Source: Escherichia coli
GTDB lineage: Bacteria; Pseudomonadota; Gammaproteobacteria; Enterobacterales; Enterobacteriaceae
Assembly: GCF_003334765.1 (NCBI RefSeq)
Contig: NZ_QOWT01000001.1
DNA: 64,000 nucleotides
Direction: 5' to 3' (one strand)
Positions 24,747 to 39,200 of the stretch are shown here, in pieces; within the stretch, counting starts at the first letter, position 1, and every line of letters begins with the position of its first letter. A program made the translations under genes and the position numbers. The notes below the pieces were generated by a model that had not been told where the DNA came from, did not search any database, and saw only the letters and a program-made list of their open reading frames with translations.

Positions 24747-25589
24747 ATGATGCAGCCAGTGATTAACGCGCCGGAAATTGCCACTGCCCGAGAACAGCAG
24801 TTGTTTAATGGCAAAAACTTCCATGTGTTTATCTATAACAAAACTGAGAGTATCAGCGGACTGCATCAGCACGACTATTATGAATTTACTCTGGTATTAA
24901 CCGGGCGTTATTTCCAGGAGATTAACGGTAAGCGCGTGTTACTGGAACGGGGCGATTTTGTTTTTATTCCGTTAGGTTCGCACCATCAAAGTTTTTATGA
25001 GTTTGGTGCCACGCGCATATTGAACGTTGGGATCAGTAAACGCTTTTTTGAGCAGCATTACCTGCCATTGTTGCCTTATTGCTTTGTCGCTTCGCAGGTA
25101 TACCGGACCAATAACGCTTTTCTCACCTATGTGGAAACAGTGATTTCTTCATTGAATTTCCGCGAAACAGGGCTGGAAGAGTTTGTTGAGATGGTTACTT
25201 TTTATGTCATTAACCGTTTACGTCATTACCGCGAAGAACAGGTGATTGATGATGTACCGCAGTGGCTGAAAAGTACGGTAGAAAAGATGCATGATAAAGA
25301 GCAGTTTAGTGAATCGGCGCTGGAGAATATGGTGGCGTTGTCAGCCAAATCACAGGAATATTTGACGCGAGCGACTCAACGATATTATGGCAAAACGCCA
25401 ATGCAGATTATTAATGAAATCCGTATTAATTTTGCCAAAAAACAACTGGAAATGACCAACTATTCAGTGACGGATATTGCGTTTGAGGCCGGTTATAGTA
25501 GCCCGAGTTTGTTTATTAAAACGTTTAAGAAATTAACGTCCTTTACGCCTAAGAGCTATCGTAAGAAATTGACTGAATTTAATCAGTAA
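24747..25589 (+). CDS. chbR: AraC-family dual regulator of the chb operon
   Basis: 280 aa with C-terminal AraC-type HTH. Confidence 0.93.
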
Positions 25590-30327: not shown

Positions 30328-30530
30328 TGAACTCGTCTCCTTAATTTATTACTGAAAGGGCCGCTGTTTTGGTCAAAAAACTCTCTAACTATAGACCACC
30401 AGCCAGATCCCGCTTCGGAGACTATTCTGGAAACGGTGTTATGAAATACACGCAAAGCGGGACGTACAGGGGCTAAATCGGCTAAACTACAGTTTTTCTG
30501 ATTTTTAATATGCGTTTAGTGAAGCCAGTA

Positions 30531-30773
30531 ATGAAGAAACCGCTCCGCCAGCAAAACCGCCAGATTATTAGCTATGTCCCACGCACGGAACCCGCGCCGC
30601 CAGAACATGCGATAAAGATGGATTCGTTTCGTGATGTCTGGATGCTGCGTGGCAAATATGTTGCGTTTGTACTGATGGGAGAGTCATTTCTGCGCTCACC
30701 GGCGTTTACTGTGCCTGAATCTGCCCAACGTTGGGCAAATCAGATCCGCCAGGAAGGGGAAGTGACTGAGTAA
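30531..30773 (+). CDS. cedA: Cell division activator CedA
   Basis: 80 aa from MKKPLRQQNRQIISYVPRTEPAPPEH; the 87-aa upstream extension was rejected. Confidence 0.85.
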   Translation: MKKPLRQQNRQIISYVPRTEPAPPEHAIKMDSFRDVWMLRGKYVAFVLMGESFLRSPAFTVPESAQRWANQIRQEGEVTE

Positions 30774-31061
30774 GGATTACATACCTCCCGGTTTTGCCGG
30801 GAGTTACATGACCTGAAATTCTGTATTTCGTTGCTACATTCATTCAAACCACCTGTAACAAAAAGCTGCCTTTGACGATCTATTGCTATAAATAAGTGAT
30901 CTTTTTTCTTTAATTGTTTATTTATTTTAAAATGGTTAAGTTTTGCTAATCATGATGAGCTATTTTTGATAGTTCATCCTGTGGCGTCGCTCTTAAACTT
31001 ATATTGTAAATGACTTAGATTTAAATGAGATAATAATTTTGTTAACAATATGAGGCGGGAG

Positions 31062-31865
31062 ATGTTTTCTACAAACTTAATACAGAGTAATTATGGTGAT
31101 TTAAATATTAAAAGCCTGGCTTTCGACTCTTTTAAAGAAAGGCTGCAGTCTACTATGACAGCACTCACTTTCTTTATATCAACGGGTCAATGTGACTGCG
31201 ATGAAATAGCAGAATCAAACTTTAATTATATGATTGCCTATATGTCTAACATTAACTATGATGCCTCAAAGCCAGGAGCGCCAGCACTTAGTTTTGATAC
31301 ATATCTGCAGGACAATGTTAAATATAGAGTAATAATTAATAATCTTTATGGTAGTGAAATTCGGATAAGAGGTATAAATAAAGATTTTATTGGAATGGAT
31401 GTCACTTCTGTATTTCGCCCAGAAAAAATGACCAATTTGATCAGTATAAAAAACAGGTTGGTTATTCACTATTTAAGGACTATATACTATGAACAAAATT
31501 ATATACATCCTGTCGGGAGCATTTTTGCTGCGATTCAAAAAAATGAGAGTCTCCTAAAGTTTCCTTCGATAATATCAATGCTTAATATCAATCTTCTTTT
31601 TAATCCACTAAATCTTCCGGGAATGGGAAGTGGTGTGCTTGAAGATATTATGAGTATTCCAGATAGTTCACTTAGAAAACGTCTCGGGTATGAGGTTTTA
31701 AGCTTCTCGCTACAGGCACATTCATTGAGCCAGGAATGTATTGATAAGTTGGACATTTTTTTCGCTGACGATCTGTTTAAATATGAGTCAGTATGCATCG
31801 CCGCGATGGAACATTTAAAAAGTAAGGCAACGGCCCCTATACAAAACGGACCGTTGCCAGCATAA
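31062..31865 (+). CDS. ydjO: Uncharacterised protein YdjO (AT-rich gene)
   Basis: 267 aa from MFSTNLIQSNYG; GAGG RBS 6 nt upstream; codon usage visibly AT-rich versus neighbours. Confidence 0.75.
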   Translation: MFSTNLIQSNYGDLNIKSLAFDSFKERLQSTMTALTFFISTGQCDCDEIAESNFNYMIAYMSNINYDASKPGAPALSFDTYLQDNVKYRVIINNLYGSEIRIRGINKDFIGMDVTSVFRPEKMTNLISIKNRLVIHYLRTIYYEQNYIHPVGSIFAAIQKNESLLKFPSIISMLNINLLFNPLNLPGMGSGVLEDIMSIPDSSLRKRLGYEVLSFSLQAHSLSQECIDKLDIFFADDLFKYESVCIAAMEHLKSKATAPIQNGPLPA

Positions 31866-31868
31866 GAA

Positions 31869-33260
31869 TTAATGGTGTGCCAGTTCGGCGTCGTCTTCGC
31901 TATCCAGAATGGCTTTATCGGTTTGCTTCAGCCACTGGCTGGTCAGCGTGCCAGCTGTCATCGAGCCACTAACGTTTAACGCCGTACGGCCCATGTCGAT
32001 AAGCGGTTCAACGGAGATTAACAGCGCCACCAGGGTTACTGGCAGGCCCATCGCAGGCAGTACAATCAGTGCGGCGAAAGTTGCACCACCACCGACACCG
32101 GCAACGCCTGCGGAACTAACGGTAACAATACCGACCAGCGTCGCAATCCACATCGGGTCCAGCGGGTTAATGCCAACCGTAGGCGCAACCATCACCGCCA
32201 GCATTGCCGGATACAAACCGGCGCAGCCGTTCTGACCAATGGTTGCACCGAAAGAGGCGGCGAAACTGGCGATGGATTCAGGAACGCCCAGACGACGCAT
32301 TTGTGCTTCCACATTCAGTGGGATAGACGCAGCACTGGAACGGCTGGTAAAGGCAAACGTCAGCACAGGCCATACCTTACGGAAGTACTTCAGCGGACTC
32401 ACGCCATTAATGCCCAGCAGAATGCCATGCACTGCAAACATAATCAGCAGACCGAGGTAGGACGCGACAACGAAACTTCCCAGTTTGATGATGTCTTGCA
32501 AGTTAGAACCTGCAACCACTTTGGTCATTAGAGCCAGAACGCCGTAAGGGGTCAACTGCATGACCAGGCGAACCAGTTTCATCACCCAGCTTTGTAGGGT
32601 ATCGATAGCGGCTAAGACGCGTTCACCTTTCGGCGCATCATCCTTCAGCAGTTTCAATGCAGCTACGCCGAGGAATGCGGCAAAAATTACCACGCTGATA
32701 ATTGACGTCGGATTGGCTCCGGTAAGATCGGCAAACGGGTTTTTCGGGATAAAGGACAAGACCAGCTGCGGAACGCTCAGATCAGAGACTTTACCAACAT
32801 AGTTACTTTCAATGGCGTTCAGACGTGCAGTTTCTGCACCACCCTGAACCAGACCTTCAGCCGTCAAACCAAACAGGTTGGTGACCAGCACACCGACCAG
32901 CGCCGCAATCAGCGTGGTAAACAAAAGCGTACCGATGGTCAGAAAACTGATTTTGCCTAACTGAGATGCGTTATGCAGACGGGCAACCGCGCTCAGAATA
33001 GAGGCGAAGACTAACGGCATAACGATCATTTGCAGCAGTTGAACATAGCCGTTACCAACGATGTTAAACCACTGTACAGAATCTTTAAGTACCTGGCTGT
33101 CAGAACCATAAATGGTATGCAGGGCAAGGCCAAAAACCACACCCATCACCAGACCCACCAGCACTTTTTTCGCCAGACTCCACTGTTTATGGCGGGTCTG
33201 AGCCAGCGCAAACAGCAGTACAACGAACACCACGATGTTCGCAATTAATGGAAAGTTCAT
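31869..33260 (-). CDS. tcyP: L-cystine transporter, sodium:dicarboxylate symporter family
   Basis: 463-aa polytopic ORF (ydjN). Confidence 0.9.
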
Positions 33261-38110: not shown

Positions 38111-38869
38111 ATGAAGCTTTTGAAGACAGTTCCTGCCATCGTTATGTTGGCGGGGGGCATGTTTGCGTCACTGAATGCAGCTGCCGATGATTCCGTTTTT
38201 ACTGTCATGGATGATCCTGCCAGCGCTAAAAAACCTTTCGAAGGTAATCTGAACGCAGGATATCTTGCACAATCAGGCAATACGAAAAGCTCCTCACTTA
38301 CGGCTGACACCACCATGACCTGGTATGGACACACCACTGCCTGGTCGCTGTGGGGGAACGCCAGTAATACTTCTTCTAATGATGAGCGTTCTTCAGAAAA
38401 ATATGCGGCGGGCGGGCGTAGCCGTTTTAATTTAACTGATTATGACTATTTATTTGGTCAGGCAAGCTGGCTGACAGACCGTTATAACGGCTATCGAGAG
38501 CGCGATGTGTTGACCGCGGGTTATGGTCGTCAGTTTTTGAATGGCCCGGTACACAGTTTCCGCTTTGAATTCGGTCCAGGTGTGCGTTACGACAAATATA
38601 CCGACAATGCCAGTGAAACCCAGCCGCTGGGCTATGCCTCCGGGGCTTATGCATGGCAGTTGACTGACAACGCTAAATTTACGCAGGGTGTTTCGGTCTT
38701 TGGCGCGGAAGACACAACGCTGAACTCCGAAAGCGCATTAAATGTTGCTATTAATGAACATTTTGGACTGAAGGTGGCTTACAACGTCACATGGAACTCT
38801 GAACCTCCAGAGTCTGCACCGGAACATACCGACCGTCGGACAACCTTATCGCTGGGCTACAGCATGTAA
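38111..38869 (+). CDS. ydiY: Putative outer-membrane beta-barrel protein YdiY (DUF481)
   Basis: 252 aa with signal peptide and C-terminal aromatic residue typical of OMPs. Confidence 0.85.
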   Translation: MKLLKTVPAIVMLAGGMFASLNAAADDSVFTVMDDPASAKKPFEGNLNAGYLAQSGNTKSSSLTADTTMTWYGHTTAWSLWGNASNTSSNDERSSEKYAAGGRSRFNLTDYDYLFGQASWLTDRYNGYRERDVLTAGYGRQFLNGPVHSFRFEFGPGVRYDKYTDNASETQPLGYASGAYAWQLTDNAKFTQGVSVFGAEDTTLNSESALNVAINEHFGLKVAYNVTWNSEPPESAPEHTDRRTTLSLGYSM

Positions 38870-38921
38870 AATTATCTGCCGGACCGTGTTATGCGGTCTG
38901 GCTGTCTTCGTTTGTCACTGC

Positions 38922-39029
38922 TCAGCCCCAAATCATTGCTGCCCAACGTAGCAACAACATAGCGCCACAGATTGCCAGTAGCACCACCACCATCTTCCAG
39001 TGTTTTTTATCAAAGCGTTTAGTCGGCAT
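38922..39029 (-). CDS. yniD: Small membrane protein YniD (35 aa)
   Basis: MPTKRFDKKHWKMVVVLLAICGAMLLLRWAAMIWG, single TM helix; the frame stays open upstream to 39140 (72 aa) but the short form is preferred. Confidence 0.6.
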   Translation of the reverse strand: MPTKRFDKKHWKMVVVLLAICGAMLLLRWAAMIWG

Positions 39030-39200
39030 ACCAGTGTCCTGCATATCTCTTGTGCGTGATAACGGAGTGTAACAAAAGGGACAGGCATCAAGGGATTTTT
39101 TGTTATTACAGCCGTCGGGTGGCGTTGTGCACATGGTCACTGTTTCTGCGTTTTATGAAAAAAATAAAATTATGTATCGATATATATCGTAAATAGCTGG

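What the first reader, a model, noticed from the sequence alone, without database searches (positions are those of the whole stretch)
30774..31900. AT-rich ydjO locus looks compositionally foreign
The ydjO coding region and its 290-bp upstream spacer are visibly AT-rich (long A/T runs such as ttttttctttaattgtttatttattttaaaatgg, with Asn/Ile/Tyr/Lys-rich protein) compared with flanking cedA and tcyP. This is typical of horizontally acquired, H-NS-silenced genes. The protein has no recognisable motif.
Basis: partly seen in the sequence, partly recalled or inferred. Interest (0 to 1): 0.4.

Follow-up and report, generated by a model that had tools for sequence, protein, structure and literature searches.

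The report
AT-rich foreign orphan gene ydjO
The AT-rich stretch is an old 1.1-kb insertion of foreign DNA in E. coli that carries the orphan gene ydjO; published data show the silencing protein H-NS bound to it, and the gene is missing or broken in about half of E. coli strains. Its foreign origin and H-NS binding were already known.

Summary
Window 30774-31900 has 35.0% GC against 50.3% for the window, the lowest of any 1.1-kb stretch. ydjO ranks last of 46 ORFs for GC3 (32.5%) and for codon-usage match.

- In about 50 other Enterobacteriaceae species, four non-coli Escherichia lineages and 1124 of 5426 complete E. coli genomes (S88, CFT073), cedA and tcyP lie 50-110 bp apart around a shared terminator hairpin.
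- K-12 carries a ~1.1-kb insert there. It replaced that terminator and the last five cedA codons.
- Published ChIP-chip and SELEX data place H-NS and RNA polymerase on the spacer, and earlier studies already called ydjO foreign.

YdjO has no match in Pfam, NCBIfam, PHROGs, PADLOC or the PDB, and no relative outside Escherichia/Shigella. One apparent distant homologue is a database artefact.

New details:
- E. albertii has a 32-39% identical copy at the same site.
- dN/dS is 0.16-0.27, so it is a real coding gene.
- The N-terminal half carries very old haplotypes.
- 8 of 23 sampled carriers have it disrupted.
- tcyP's terminator now lies inside ydjO's last codons.
- ydjO is not a universal E. 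coli marker.

The main finding is already known; interest is low.

The parts
30755..30773 (+). Derived 3' end of cedA. The last ~5 codons read QEGEVTE* instead of the ancestral QENEVEE*. This is the left junction of the insertion.
   Evidence: Comparison with empty-site genomes and outgroups. The same derived ending occurs in E. albertii and in the L006 deletion remnant.
30774..31061 (+). AT-rich cedA-ydjO spacer (31% GC). Published as a 'promoter island' and as an H-NS / RNA polymerase binding region.
   Evidence: PMC3661553 Table 1; PMC3946193 Table 2.
30785..30803 (+). Hairpin CTCCCGG-loop-CCGGGAG just after the cedA stop. It has no U-tract. It may serve as the replacement 3' end structure for cedA.
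   Evidence: RNA fold of 30768-30830: -19.9 kcal/mol, z -3.0. Conserved in the other filled alleles.
30955..30974 (+). 20-nt block ATGAGCTATTTTTGATAGTT, invariant in every filled locus including E. albertii. Candidate cis-regulatory site of unknown role.
   Evidence: Alignment. Exact match in all 22 filled loci and nowhere else in the window.
31010..31037 (+). Sigma-70 promoter-like site ATGACT-16-AATAAT upstream of ydjO.
   Evidence: Consensus scan. The identical hexamers are given for the RpoD SELEX site of ydjO in PMC3946193.
31062..31865 (+). ydjO coding sequence, 267 codons, with GAGG six bases upstream of the ATG. Escherichia-restricted orphan protein, soluble, pI 5.6.
   Evidence: RefSeq annotation. 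dN/dS 0.16-0.27. Excess of third-position changes and Fisher p = 6e-11. No transmembrane segment.
31448..31453 (+). A6 run, a frameshift site (delta-A in strain H6).
31537..31543 (+). A7 run, a recurrent frameshift site. +A and +AA occur in PSS-07 and ZYB62. Large protein clusters end at residue ~160.
31756..31762 (+). T7 run, a frameshift site (delta-T in O157:H7 493/89 and in NJS001).
31812..31858 (-). Intrinsic terminator of tcyP: hairpin at 31826-31858 followed by UUACUUUUUAAAU. It lies inside the last ~12-18 codons of ydjO and replaces the ancestral shared terminator.
   Evidence: RNA fold -22.4 kcal/mol, z -4.45. Inverted repeat I10. Terminator scan.
30873..30884 (+). Left copy of the 12-nt direct repeat TGACGATCT(A/G)TT. 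The right copy is at 31766-31777. These are the end points of the ~0.9-kb deletion that left only a ydjO remnant in Escherichia sp. MOD1-EC7003.
   Evidence: Repeat family D5. Junction sequence of L006.

Best explanation
A ~1.1-kb AT-rich segment of foreign DNA (window ~30755-31865) was inserted between the convergent genes cedA and tcyP in an early Escherichia lineage.

Shown:
- The insertion removed the ancestral bidirectional terminator and rewrote the last five codons of cedA.
- It brought its own spacer, a sigma-70-type promoter-like site, a Shine-Dalgarno sequence and one 267-codon gene, ydjO.
- The 3' end of ydjO now contains the terminator hairpin used by tcyP.
- YdjO has no relatives outside Escherichia/Shigella and no known domain.
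- Its coding frame has been kept by purifying selection (dN/dS ~0.2). A 32-39% identical copy sits at the same junction in E. albertii.
- Today the gene is dispensable. It is absent from 21% of complete E. coli genomes, which keep the ancestral empty site. It is disrupted by IS insertion, homopolymer frameshift or nonsense mutation in about a third of sampled carriers.

Taken from published ChIP-chip and genomic SELEX:
- H-NS and RNA polymerase holoenzyme both bind the spacer.

Inferred:
- The AT-richness lets H-NS nucleate on the spacer and spread over the gene. Polymerase that binds the promoter is then trapped or excluded, and ydjO stays essentially silent under laboratory conditions.
- The protein is a soluble two-domain cytoplasmic accessory factor, with an alpha/beta N-terminal domain and a helical C-terminal domain. 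It would be useful only in some niche. Its biochemical activity remains unknown.
For: Composition and codon usage are the most extreme in the window.

Empty ancestral site:
- cedA and tcyP stops lie ~50-110 bp apart in most of the non-Escherichia species loci; a sample of them was read and shows an A-run / GC-stem / T-run hairpin.
- The same holds in E. whittamii, three other non-coli Escherichia genomes and E. coli S88.
- 1124 of 5426 complete E. coli genomes carry that contiguous empty junction. 4305 carry the insert.

Shared derived junction: cedA ends in QEGEV(T/A)E in K-12, in the L006 remnant and in E. albertii.

Orphan status:
- A search of 5.8 billion proteins returned only E. coli sequences.
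- Exhaustive HMMER against 1.84 billion representatives returned only YdjO fragments, one artefact and one low-complexity hit.
- Foldseek against AFDB50 gave significant hits only to E. coli, Shigella and E. albertii proteins.
- No Pfam, NCBIfam, PHROG, PADLOC or PDB match.

Coding selection:
- dN/dS is 0.16-0.27 in six of the eight allele comparisons with K-12. For the P0006 allele, Sd/S = 55/165 and Nd/N = 69/636, Fisher p = 6e-11.
- Changes by codon position are 34/29/61.
- Conserved hydrophobic pattern with E. albertii.

Decay: of 23 systematically sampled carriers, 8 are disrupted and 2 are shortened, through at least five independent lesions. IS interruption in O104:H4 is reported in PMC3486847.

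H-NS and RNA polymerase binding: PMC3661553, PMC3946193 and RpoS SELEX in PMC5493296.

Promoter ATGACT-16-AATAAT at 31010-31037. tcyP terminator inside ydjO.
Against: - No donor, vector, integrase, tRNA, att site or terminal repeat was found. 'Foreign' therefore rests on the empty ancestral site and on composition, not on an identified source.
- H-NS silencing of ydjO was not tested here. Derepression in an hns mutant was not found in the papers read.
- The Lang H-NS motif TCGATAAATT is not enriched in the region.
- The simple sigma-70 scan shows no excess of promoter-like sites over composition-matched shuffles, 4 against 4.6.
- The presence/absence pattern does not fit one gain on the accepted tree. 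E. albertii and a close non-coli relative of E. coli (L006) are filled, while four more distant non-coli Escherichia lineages and B2 strains are empty. Persistent polymorphism or recombination between lineages must be invoked.
- After so long in Escherichia the gene has not drifted toward host GC (GC3 still 32%). That needs an additional assumption, such as AT-biased mutation under weak selection or selection to keep H-NS binding.
- The structure model is of only moderate confidence (pLDDT 64.8).
Confidence: 0.85

Rival explanations
1. ydjO is not a functional gene. The insert is junk AT-rich DNA, for example a relic of a degraded mobile element, and the 267-codon ORF is fortuitous or already dead everywhere.
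For: - No homologues or domains.
- Silent and H-NS bound according to the literature.
- 8 of 23 sampled carriers are pseudogenes and 21% of genomes lack it.
- Low to moderate structure confidence.
Against: - dN/dS is 0.16-0.27 with Fisher p = 6e-11 and a third-position excess.
- An open frame is retained at dS ~0.76 (P0006 allele), and at saturated dS in E. albertii, where AFDB holds a 257-aa protein that is 32% identical.
- In a 35% GC sequence, stop codons arise easily, so an 800-nt open frame would not survive such divergence by chance.
- The disrupting lesions are different in different lineages and are recent.
Confidence: 0.07
2. ydjO is an ancestral enterobacterial gene that happens to be AT-rich and was lost independently in all other lineages.
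For: It is present in two Escherichia species at the same locus, with divergence comparable to or above the species divergence.
Against: - All non-Escherichia loci that could be scored, and four Escherichia lineages, have cedA and tcyP adjacent. Most stops lie ~50-110 bp apart, and every spacer that was read carries the hairpin.
- Within Escherichia the empty spacers are alignable with each other and keep the ancestral cedA ending.
- Deletion of ydjO cannot regenerate that sequence. The one real deletion seen (L006) leaves a recognisable remnant.
- No homologue exists anywhere else in 1.84 billion representative proteins.
Confidence: 0.02
3. It is a recent cargo gene of a phage, plasmid, IS element or integrative islet.
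For: - AT-rich orphan genes in E. coli have been proposed to derive largely from phages (Daubin & Ochman 2004, recalled from my own knowledge, not read here).
- IS elements do land in this locus (H1).
Against: - tblastn finds nothing in 50,697 phage records. The only 'plasmid' hits are 4.8-4.9 Mb records, which are mislabelled chromosomes.
- No meaningful PHROG hit.
- No integrase, tRNA or flanking repeats; the direct and inverted repeats found are short and internal.
- Allele divergence (dS up to 0.76, and saturated against E. albertii) shows long residence in the genus.
Confidence: 0.04

Closest known systems
H-NS-silenced xenogeneic genes and 'promoter islands' of E. coli K-12 (Panyukov & Ozoline, PMC3661553)
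   Same: - AT-rich, and the gene was predicted foreign by two independent methods.
- The spacer binds both RNA polymerase and H-NS with little productive transcription.
- This very spacer is entry 1811053_320 of their Table 1.
   Different: - It is a single-gene islet with no neighbouring island, integrase or tRNA.
- A simple sigma-70 consensus scan here does not show more promoter-like sites than its composition predicts.
E. coli ORFans / taxonomically restricted genes (Daubin & Ochman 2004, recalled from my own knowledge)
   Same: AT-rich and fast-evolving, with no homologues outside a narrow clade. It is distributed patchily and often pseudogenised.
   Different: - At 267 codons, I expect it to be longer than most ORFans.
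- Clear purifying selection (dN/dS ~0.2).
- An orthologue in E. albertii at the same junction.
- No link to phages could be shown.
YahL and YjfZ, the other 'E. coli/Shigella conserved signature proteins' used with YdjO for qPCR (PMC11057252)
   Same: Similar length (271 and 264 aa). Uncharacterised proteins reported as restricted to E. coli and Shigella.
   Different: - YahL shows no sequence similarity to YdjO (BLASTP E = 0.22).
- YdjO does not hit the DUF2686 family that names YjfZ (no Pfam hit at E <= 10).
- They are not paralogues.
Type III secretion effectors of attaching-effacing Escherichia
   Same: - AT-rich orphan gene, present in E. albertii and absent from B2 strains. From memory, the ETT2 secretion island has a similar distribution.
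- Ser/Thr/Asn-rich N-terminus.
- One weak Foldseek hit to an E. coli 'putative type III effector' (E = 0.07, TM 0.24).
   Different: - The fold hit is not significant.
- No chaperone gene and no secretion data.
- K-12 has no working secretion system.
- This is a lead only, not a classification.

Membership tests
Horizontally acquired (xenogeneic) genomic islet | Base composition and codon usage deviate strongly from the host genome. | tested here: met
   35.0% against 50.3% GC (z -3.4). Lowest GC3 and lowest codon-usage index of 46 ORFs.
Horizontally acquired (xenogeneic) genomic islet | Absent from the syntenic site in related genomes, which keep an intact ancestral junction. | tested here: met
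   Empty cedA/tcyP junction in all non-Escherichia species loci that could be scored, four Escherichia lineages and 1124 E. coli genomes. The terminator hairpin was seen in every spacer that was read.
Horizontally acquired (xenogeneic) genomic islet | Identifiable donor or mobility machinery (integrase, tRNA site, flanking repeats, phage or plasmid homologue). | tested here: not met
   None found. This feature is supportive rather than obligatory for the class.
H-NS-silenced gene | H-NS occupancy of the promoter or gene in vivo or in vitro. | not testable with these tools
   Reported in the literature: ChIP-chip (Kahramanoglou, Oshima) via PMC3661553 Table 1, and genomic SELEX in PMC3946193. 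The 10-nt H-NS motif is not enriched here.
H-NS-silenced gene | Transcription rises when hns (or hns and stpA) is deleted. | not tested
   No such data for ydjO appeared in the papers read.
Promoter island (PlatProm definition) | Abnormally dense overlapping promoter-like sites over at least 300 bp. | tested here: inconclusive
   It is listed as island 1811053_320 in PMC3661553. A simple two-hexamer scan gives 4 sites against 4.6 +/- 2.4 in shuffles. That scan is a different and cruder algorithm.
Taxonomically restricted (orphan) protein-coding gene | No detectable homologue outside a narrow clade. | tested here: met
   only Escherichia and Shigella.
Taxonomically restricted (orphan) protein-coding gene | Evolutionary signature of translation (dN/dS below 1, third-position excess). 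| tested here: met
   dN/dS 0.16-0.27, Fisher p = 6e-11, changes by codon position 34/29/61.
Type III secretion effector | Secretion or translocation by a type III system; a chaperone or a recognisable effector fold. | tested here: inconclusive

The most novel reading that the evidence does not exclude
YdjO is a functional, Escherichia-specific host- or niche-interaction protein, for example a substrate of a type III secretion system (ETT2 or LEE). Under this reading, balancing or niche-dependent selection maintains three things: the presence/absence polymorphism that crosses species boundaries, the very old N-terminal haplotypes (dS up to 0.76 within E. coli), and the strictly conserved 20-nt upstream element. 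Neutral decay of a silenced alien gene would not be the explanation.
Probability: 0.07. Interest if true: 0.55.

Novelty: already known. Interest (0 to 1): 0.2.

Why it matters
The core claim is that ydjO is an AT-rich, horizontally acquired, H-NS-bound orphan. That is already in the literature, so it changes little.

The details added here have modest practical and evolutionary value.
- ydjO has been proposed as a 'conserved, exclusive' E. coli/Shigella marker for water-quality qPCR. It is absent from about one fifth of complete E. coli genomes, including extraintestinal pathogenic B2 strains. Some alleles have up to 4 mismatches under the probe. E. albertii carries a distant copy.
- The locus is a clean, fully resolved example of a single foreign gene replacing a shared bidirectional terminator. 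The insert itself supplies the new 3' end signals for both neighbours, so loss of the insert is constrained by tcyP termination.
- It illustrates the life cycle of an orphan gene: old acquisition, long purifying selection, persistent AT-richness under H-NS, then widespread recent decay at homopolymer runs.

Tried and rejected
1. An apparent distant homologue, P0038 (299 aa, 26% identity, gap-free, E = 7e-33), was rejected. It is ydjO DNA with A and G exchanged: 257 of 261 residues are identical after swapping. It is a data artefact in the protein library.
2. P0065 (1125 aa) is a weak match to a low-complexity repeat and was rejected.
3. YahL as a paralogue was rejected (E = 0.22).
4. PHROGs, PADLOC, NCBIfam, Pfam and PDB sequence searches gave nothing usable.
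5. Phage and plasmid tblastn gave nothing. The three 'plasmid' hits are records of 4.8-4.9 Mb, so they are chromosomes.
6. Rfam gave only a chance-level snoRNA hit at 23 bits against a threshold of 50.
7. The H-NS motif TCGATAAATT has three 2-mismatch sites in the region, which is not an enrichment.
8. Structure:
   - The first AF2 model was unusable (pLDDT 49). The second was moderate (64.8).
   - Foldseek found only the protein's own family. Even 93%-identical entries superpose poorly (TM 0.32), so neither model can support a fold assignment.
9. Attempts to retrieve the full E. albertii allele failed.
   - The protein search found only a 79-aa fragment.
   - blastn against E. coli genomes found nothing.
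   - An exact 29-mer scan of metagenome contigs found nothing.
   - Its existence as a 257-aa protein is known only from the AFDB hit list.
10. The 21-nt direct repeat D1, shared between the cedA 3' end and the ydjO interior at 81% identity, was judged to be chance.
11. The b1730 literature search returned only irrelevant papers.
Full report
**1. What is there**

The window is the E. coli K-12 region celF-chbG-katE-cedA-ydjO-tcyP-ydjM-hxpB. It is 100% identical to K-12 genomes over the finding.
- cedA is at 30510-30773 (+).
- A 288-bp spacer follows at 30774-31061.
- ydjO is annotated from the ATG at 31062 to 31865 (267 codons), with GAGG six bases upstream.
- The convergent tcyP ends at 31869.

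**2.

GC content:
- The finding 35.0%, the spacer 31.2%, the ORF 35.5%.
- cedA 51.5%, tcyP 52.4%, the whole window 50.3%.
- It is the lowest 1.1-kb stretch of the 64 kb (z -3.4).

ydjO ranks last of 46 long ORFs for GC3 (0.325, z -3.6). It also ranks last for a codon-usage index built from the window's own genes (0.553, z -3.0). No domain or family matches in Pfam, NCBIfam, PHROGs, PADLOC or PDB sequences.

**3. It is an insertion, and the ancestral state is visible**

I anchored on CedA and fetched 54 loci from one genome per species.
- In Citrobacter, Salmonella, Enterobacter, Kluyvera, Leclercia, Atlantibacter and others, the cedA and tcyP stops are mostly ~50-110 bp apart. The spacers I read show an A-run / GC-stem / T-run hairpin, a shared bidirectional terminator.
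- The same arrangement occurs in E. whittamii, in three other non-coli Escherichia genomes and in E. coli S88. Their spacer sequences align with each other, and cedA ends in QENEVEE.
- In K-12 this spacer and the last five cedA codons are replaced. cedA now ends QEGEVTE, and ~1.1 kb of AT-rich DNA runs up to the tcyP stop.
- Among 5426 complete E. coli genomes, 4305 carry the insert (4238 over at least 80% of its length). 1124 carry the contiguous empty junction, including S88 and CFT073. Those two are B2 strains by my own knowledge.

A deletion cannot recreate the ancestral terminator and cedA ending. The one true deletion found, in Escherichia sp. MOD1-EC7003 (L006), joins the two copies of TGACGATCT(A/G)TT (30873-30884 and 31766-31777). 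It leaves the last 32 ydjO codons behind.

**4. Orphan status and a trap**

A search of 5.8 billion proteins returned only E. coli sequences. Exhaustive HMMER over 1.84 billion representatives returned YdjO fragments plus one full-length 'distant homologue', P0038 (26% identity, no gaps). Swapping A and G in the ydjO DNA reproduces P0038 at 257 of 261 residues, so it is a data artefact. Phage and plasmid collections hold nothing. YahL is unrelated.

**5. A copy in E. albertii**

The E. albertii type-strain locus (L008) has the derived cedA ending, an AT-rich spacer (31% GC) and an ORF 38-40% identical to the N-terminal half of YdjO (roughly residues 22-135). The ORF runs off the contig end. 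Foldseek against AFDB50 lists a 257-aa E. albertii protein with 32% identity over the full length. The insertion is therefore shared by two species. The published statement that YdjO is exclusive to E. coli and Shigella (PMC11057252) is not strictly true.

**6. It is, or was, a real gene**

- dN/dS is 0.16-0.27 in six of the eight allele comparisons with K-12; the two nearest alleles differ too little to estimate it.
- tcyP gives 0.03-0.07 wherever it carries enough synonymous changes to estimate the ratio.
- For the most divergent E. coli allele (P0006, locus L003), changes by codon position are 34/29/61 and the synonymous excess has Fisher p = 6e-11.
- Against E. albertii, dS is saturated (~1.2) and dN is 0.53.

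An 800-nt open frame in 35% GC DNA would not survive such divergence without selection.

**7. Old haplotypes**

dS in the N-terminal half of ydjO is 0.19-0.25 in five of the eight comparisons, and 0.76 for P0006. In PSS-07, ZYB62 and P0006, cedA and tcyP show dS of 0.00-0.11. For calibration, K-12 tcyP against four more distant non-coli Escherichia lineages gives dS 0.47-0.53. K-12 cedA against E. albertii gives 0.74. K-12 tcyP against Salmonella gives ~1.4.

The spacer and N-terminal half therefore carry haplotypes as old as the genus, or imported from other Escherichia lineages. The C-terminal half is nearly invariant.

E. albertii and a close non-coli relative of E. coli (L006) are filled. 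The four more distant Escherichia lineages and B2 strains keep the ancestral empty site. This pattern needs either long-lived polymorphism or recombination between lineages. I could not discriminate between the two.

**8. Decay**

Hits H1-H29 were taken at even steps down the hit ranking. I scored 23 of these carriers.
- 13 are full length.
- 2 end at codon 260.
- 8 are disrupted:
  - IS1 insertion.
  - Delta-T in the T7 run (31756-31762).
  - Delta-A in the A6 run (31448-31453).
  - A nonsense codon at position 119, in two genomes accompanied by +A or +AA in the A7 run (31537-31543).

Protein clusters tell the same story: 8291 full-length sequences against about 2500 that end at the A7 run. 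O104:H4 isolates have IS-interrupted copies (PMC3486847). Counting the 21% of genomes that lack the gene, only about half of complete E. coli genomes can make full-length YdjO.

**9. Regulation and neighbours**

- The scan finds ATGACT-16-AATAAT at 31010-31037. These are the same hexamers reported for the RpoD-holoenzyme SELEX site of ydjO, in a spacer that also holds an H-NS SELEX site (PMC3946193).
- PMC3661553 lists the spacer as a 'promoter island', bound by H-NS in two ChIP-chip data sets. It notes that ydjO was called foreign by Nakamura 2004 and by Lawrence & Ochman 1998.
- RpoS holoenzyme also binds here (PMC5493296).
- My simple tests add nothing to this. Promoter-like sites are not in excess of composition-matched shuffles, and the 10-nt H-NS motif is not enriched.
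- On the minus strand, the last ~12 codons of ydjO encode a strong hairpin (31826-31858, -22.4 kcal/mol, z -4.45) followed by a U-rich tract. This is tcyP's replacement terminator.
- A hairpin without a U-tract follows cedA.
- A 20-nt block, ATGAGCTATTTTTGATAGTT (30955-30974), is invariant in all 22 filled loci, including E. albertii. It occurs nowhere else in the window. Its role is unknown.

**10. The protein**

YdjO is 30 kDa, pI 5.6, with no Trp and no transmembrane segment.

With a 7-sequence alignment, AlphaFold2 gives pLDDT 64.8. Residues ~20-140 score 76-85 and form a long helix, five strands and a helix. The C-terminal part is helical and scores 60-81.

The biochemical function is not determined. 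My working view is an accessory cytoplasmic protein that is useful only in some niche.

**11. Verdict**

The added anatomy is incremental:
- The exact junctions.
- Replacement of the shared terminator.
- The E. albertii orthologue.
- The selection signature.
- The old haplotypes.
- Widespread pseudogenisation.
- The consequence for the ydjO qPCR marker.

Novelty: already known. Interest: 0.2.

Noticed in passing
window 38700-41800: A second AT-rich stretch. ORFs 39201-40370 (39% GC) and 40627-41100 (36% GC) have low codon-usage indices. It corresponds to the arpB pseudogene region between thrS and ydiY in MG1655.
   Followed up: partly
protein P0038 (from the representative library): A 299-aa 'protein' that looks like a 26%-identical, gap-free homologue of YdjO. 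It is in fact the ydjO sequence with A and G exchanged. It is an artefact in the public protein collection and could mislead remote-homology searches.
   Followed up: yes
window 31704-31802: This is the amplicon of the published ydjO qPCR assay for E. coli in water (PMC11057252). The target is absent from 1124 of 5426 complete E. coli genomes, including S88 and CFT073. The probe has 3-4 mismatches in some alleles.
   Followed up: yes
window 30955-30974: The 20-nt block ATGAGCTATTTTTGATAGTT is perfectly conserved in all 22 ydjO-bearing loci, including E. albertii, although the surrounding DNA is only ~58% identical there. It contains the mini-ORF ATG AGC TAT TTT TGA. Its function is unknown.
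   Followed up: partly
window 31812-31858 (- strand): A strong terminator hairpin for tcyP is embedded in the last codons of ydjO. This may explain why the extreme C-terminus of YdjO is invariant among alleles.
   Followed up: partly
window 31062-33260: ydjN (tcyP) and ydjO are listed together as serum-responsive in an RNA-seq study that used a standard TruSeq mRNA library, which I take to be non-stranded (PMC4145685). Antisense read-through from the convergent tcyP could account for the apparent regulation of ydjO.
   Followed up: no
L006 4262-4461 (Escherichia sp. MOD1-EC7003): A ~0.9-kb deletion between two 12-nt direct repeats left the first ~100 bp of the spacer joined to the last 32 codons of ydjO. 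This is an independent loss, distinct from the ancestral empty site.
   Followed up: yes
window 24747-25589 and 52174-52887: Two further ORFs have moderately low GC (41.5% and 42.3%) relative to the window. They were not examined.
   Followed up: no
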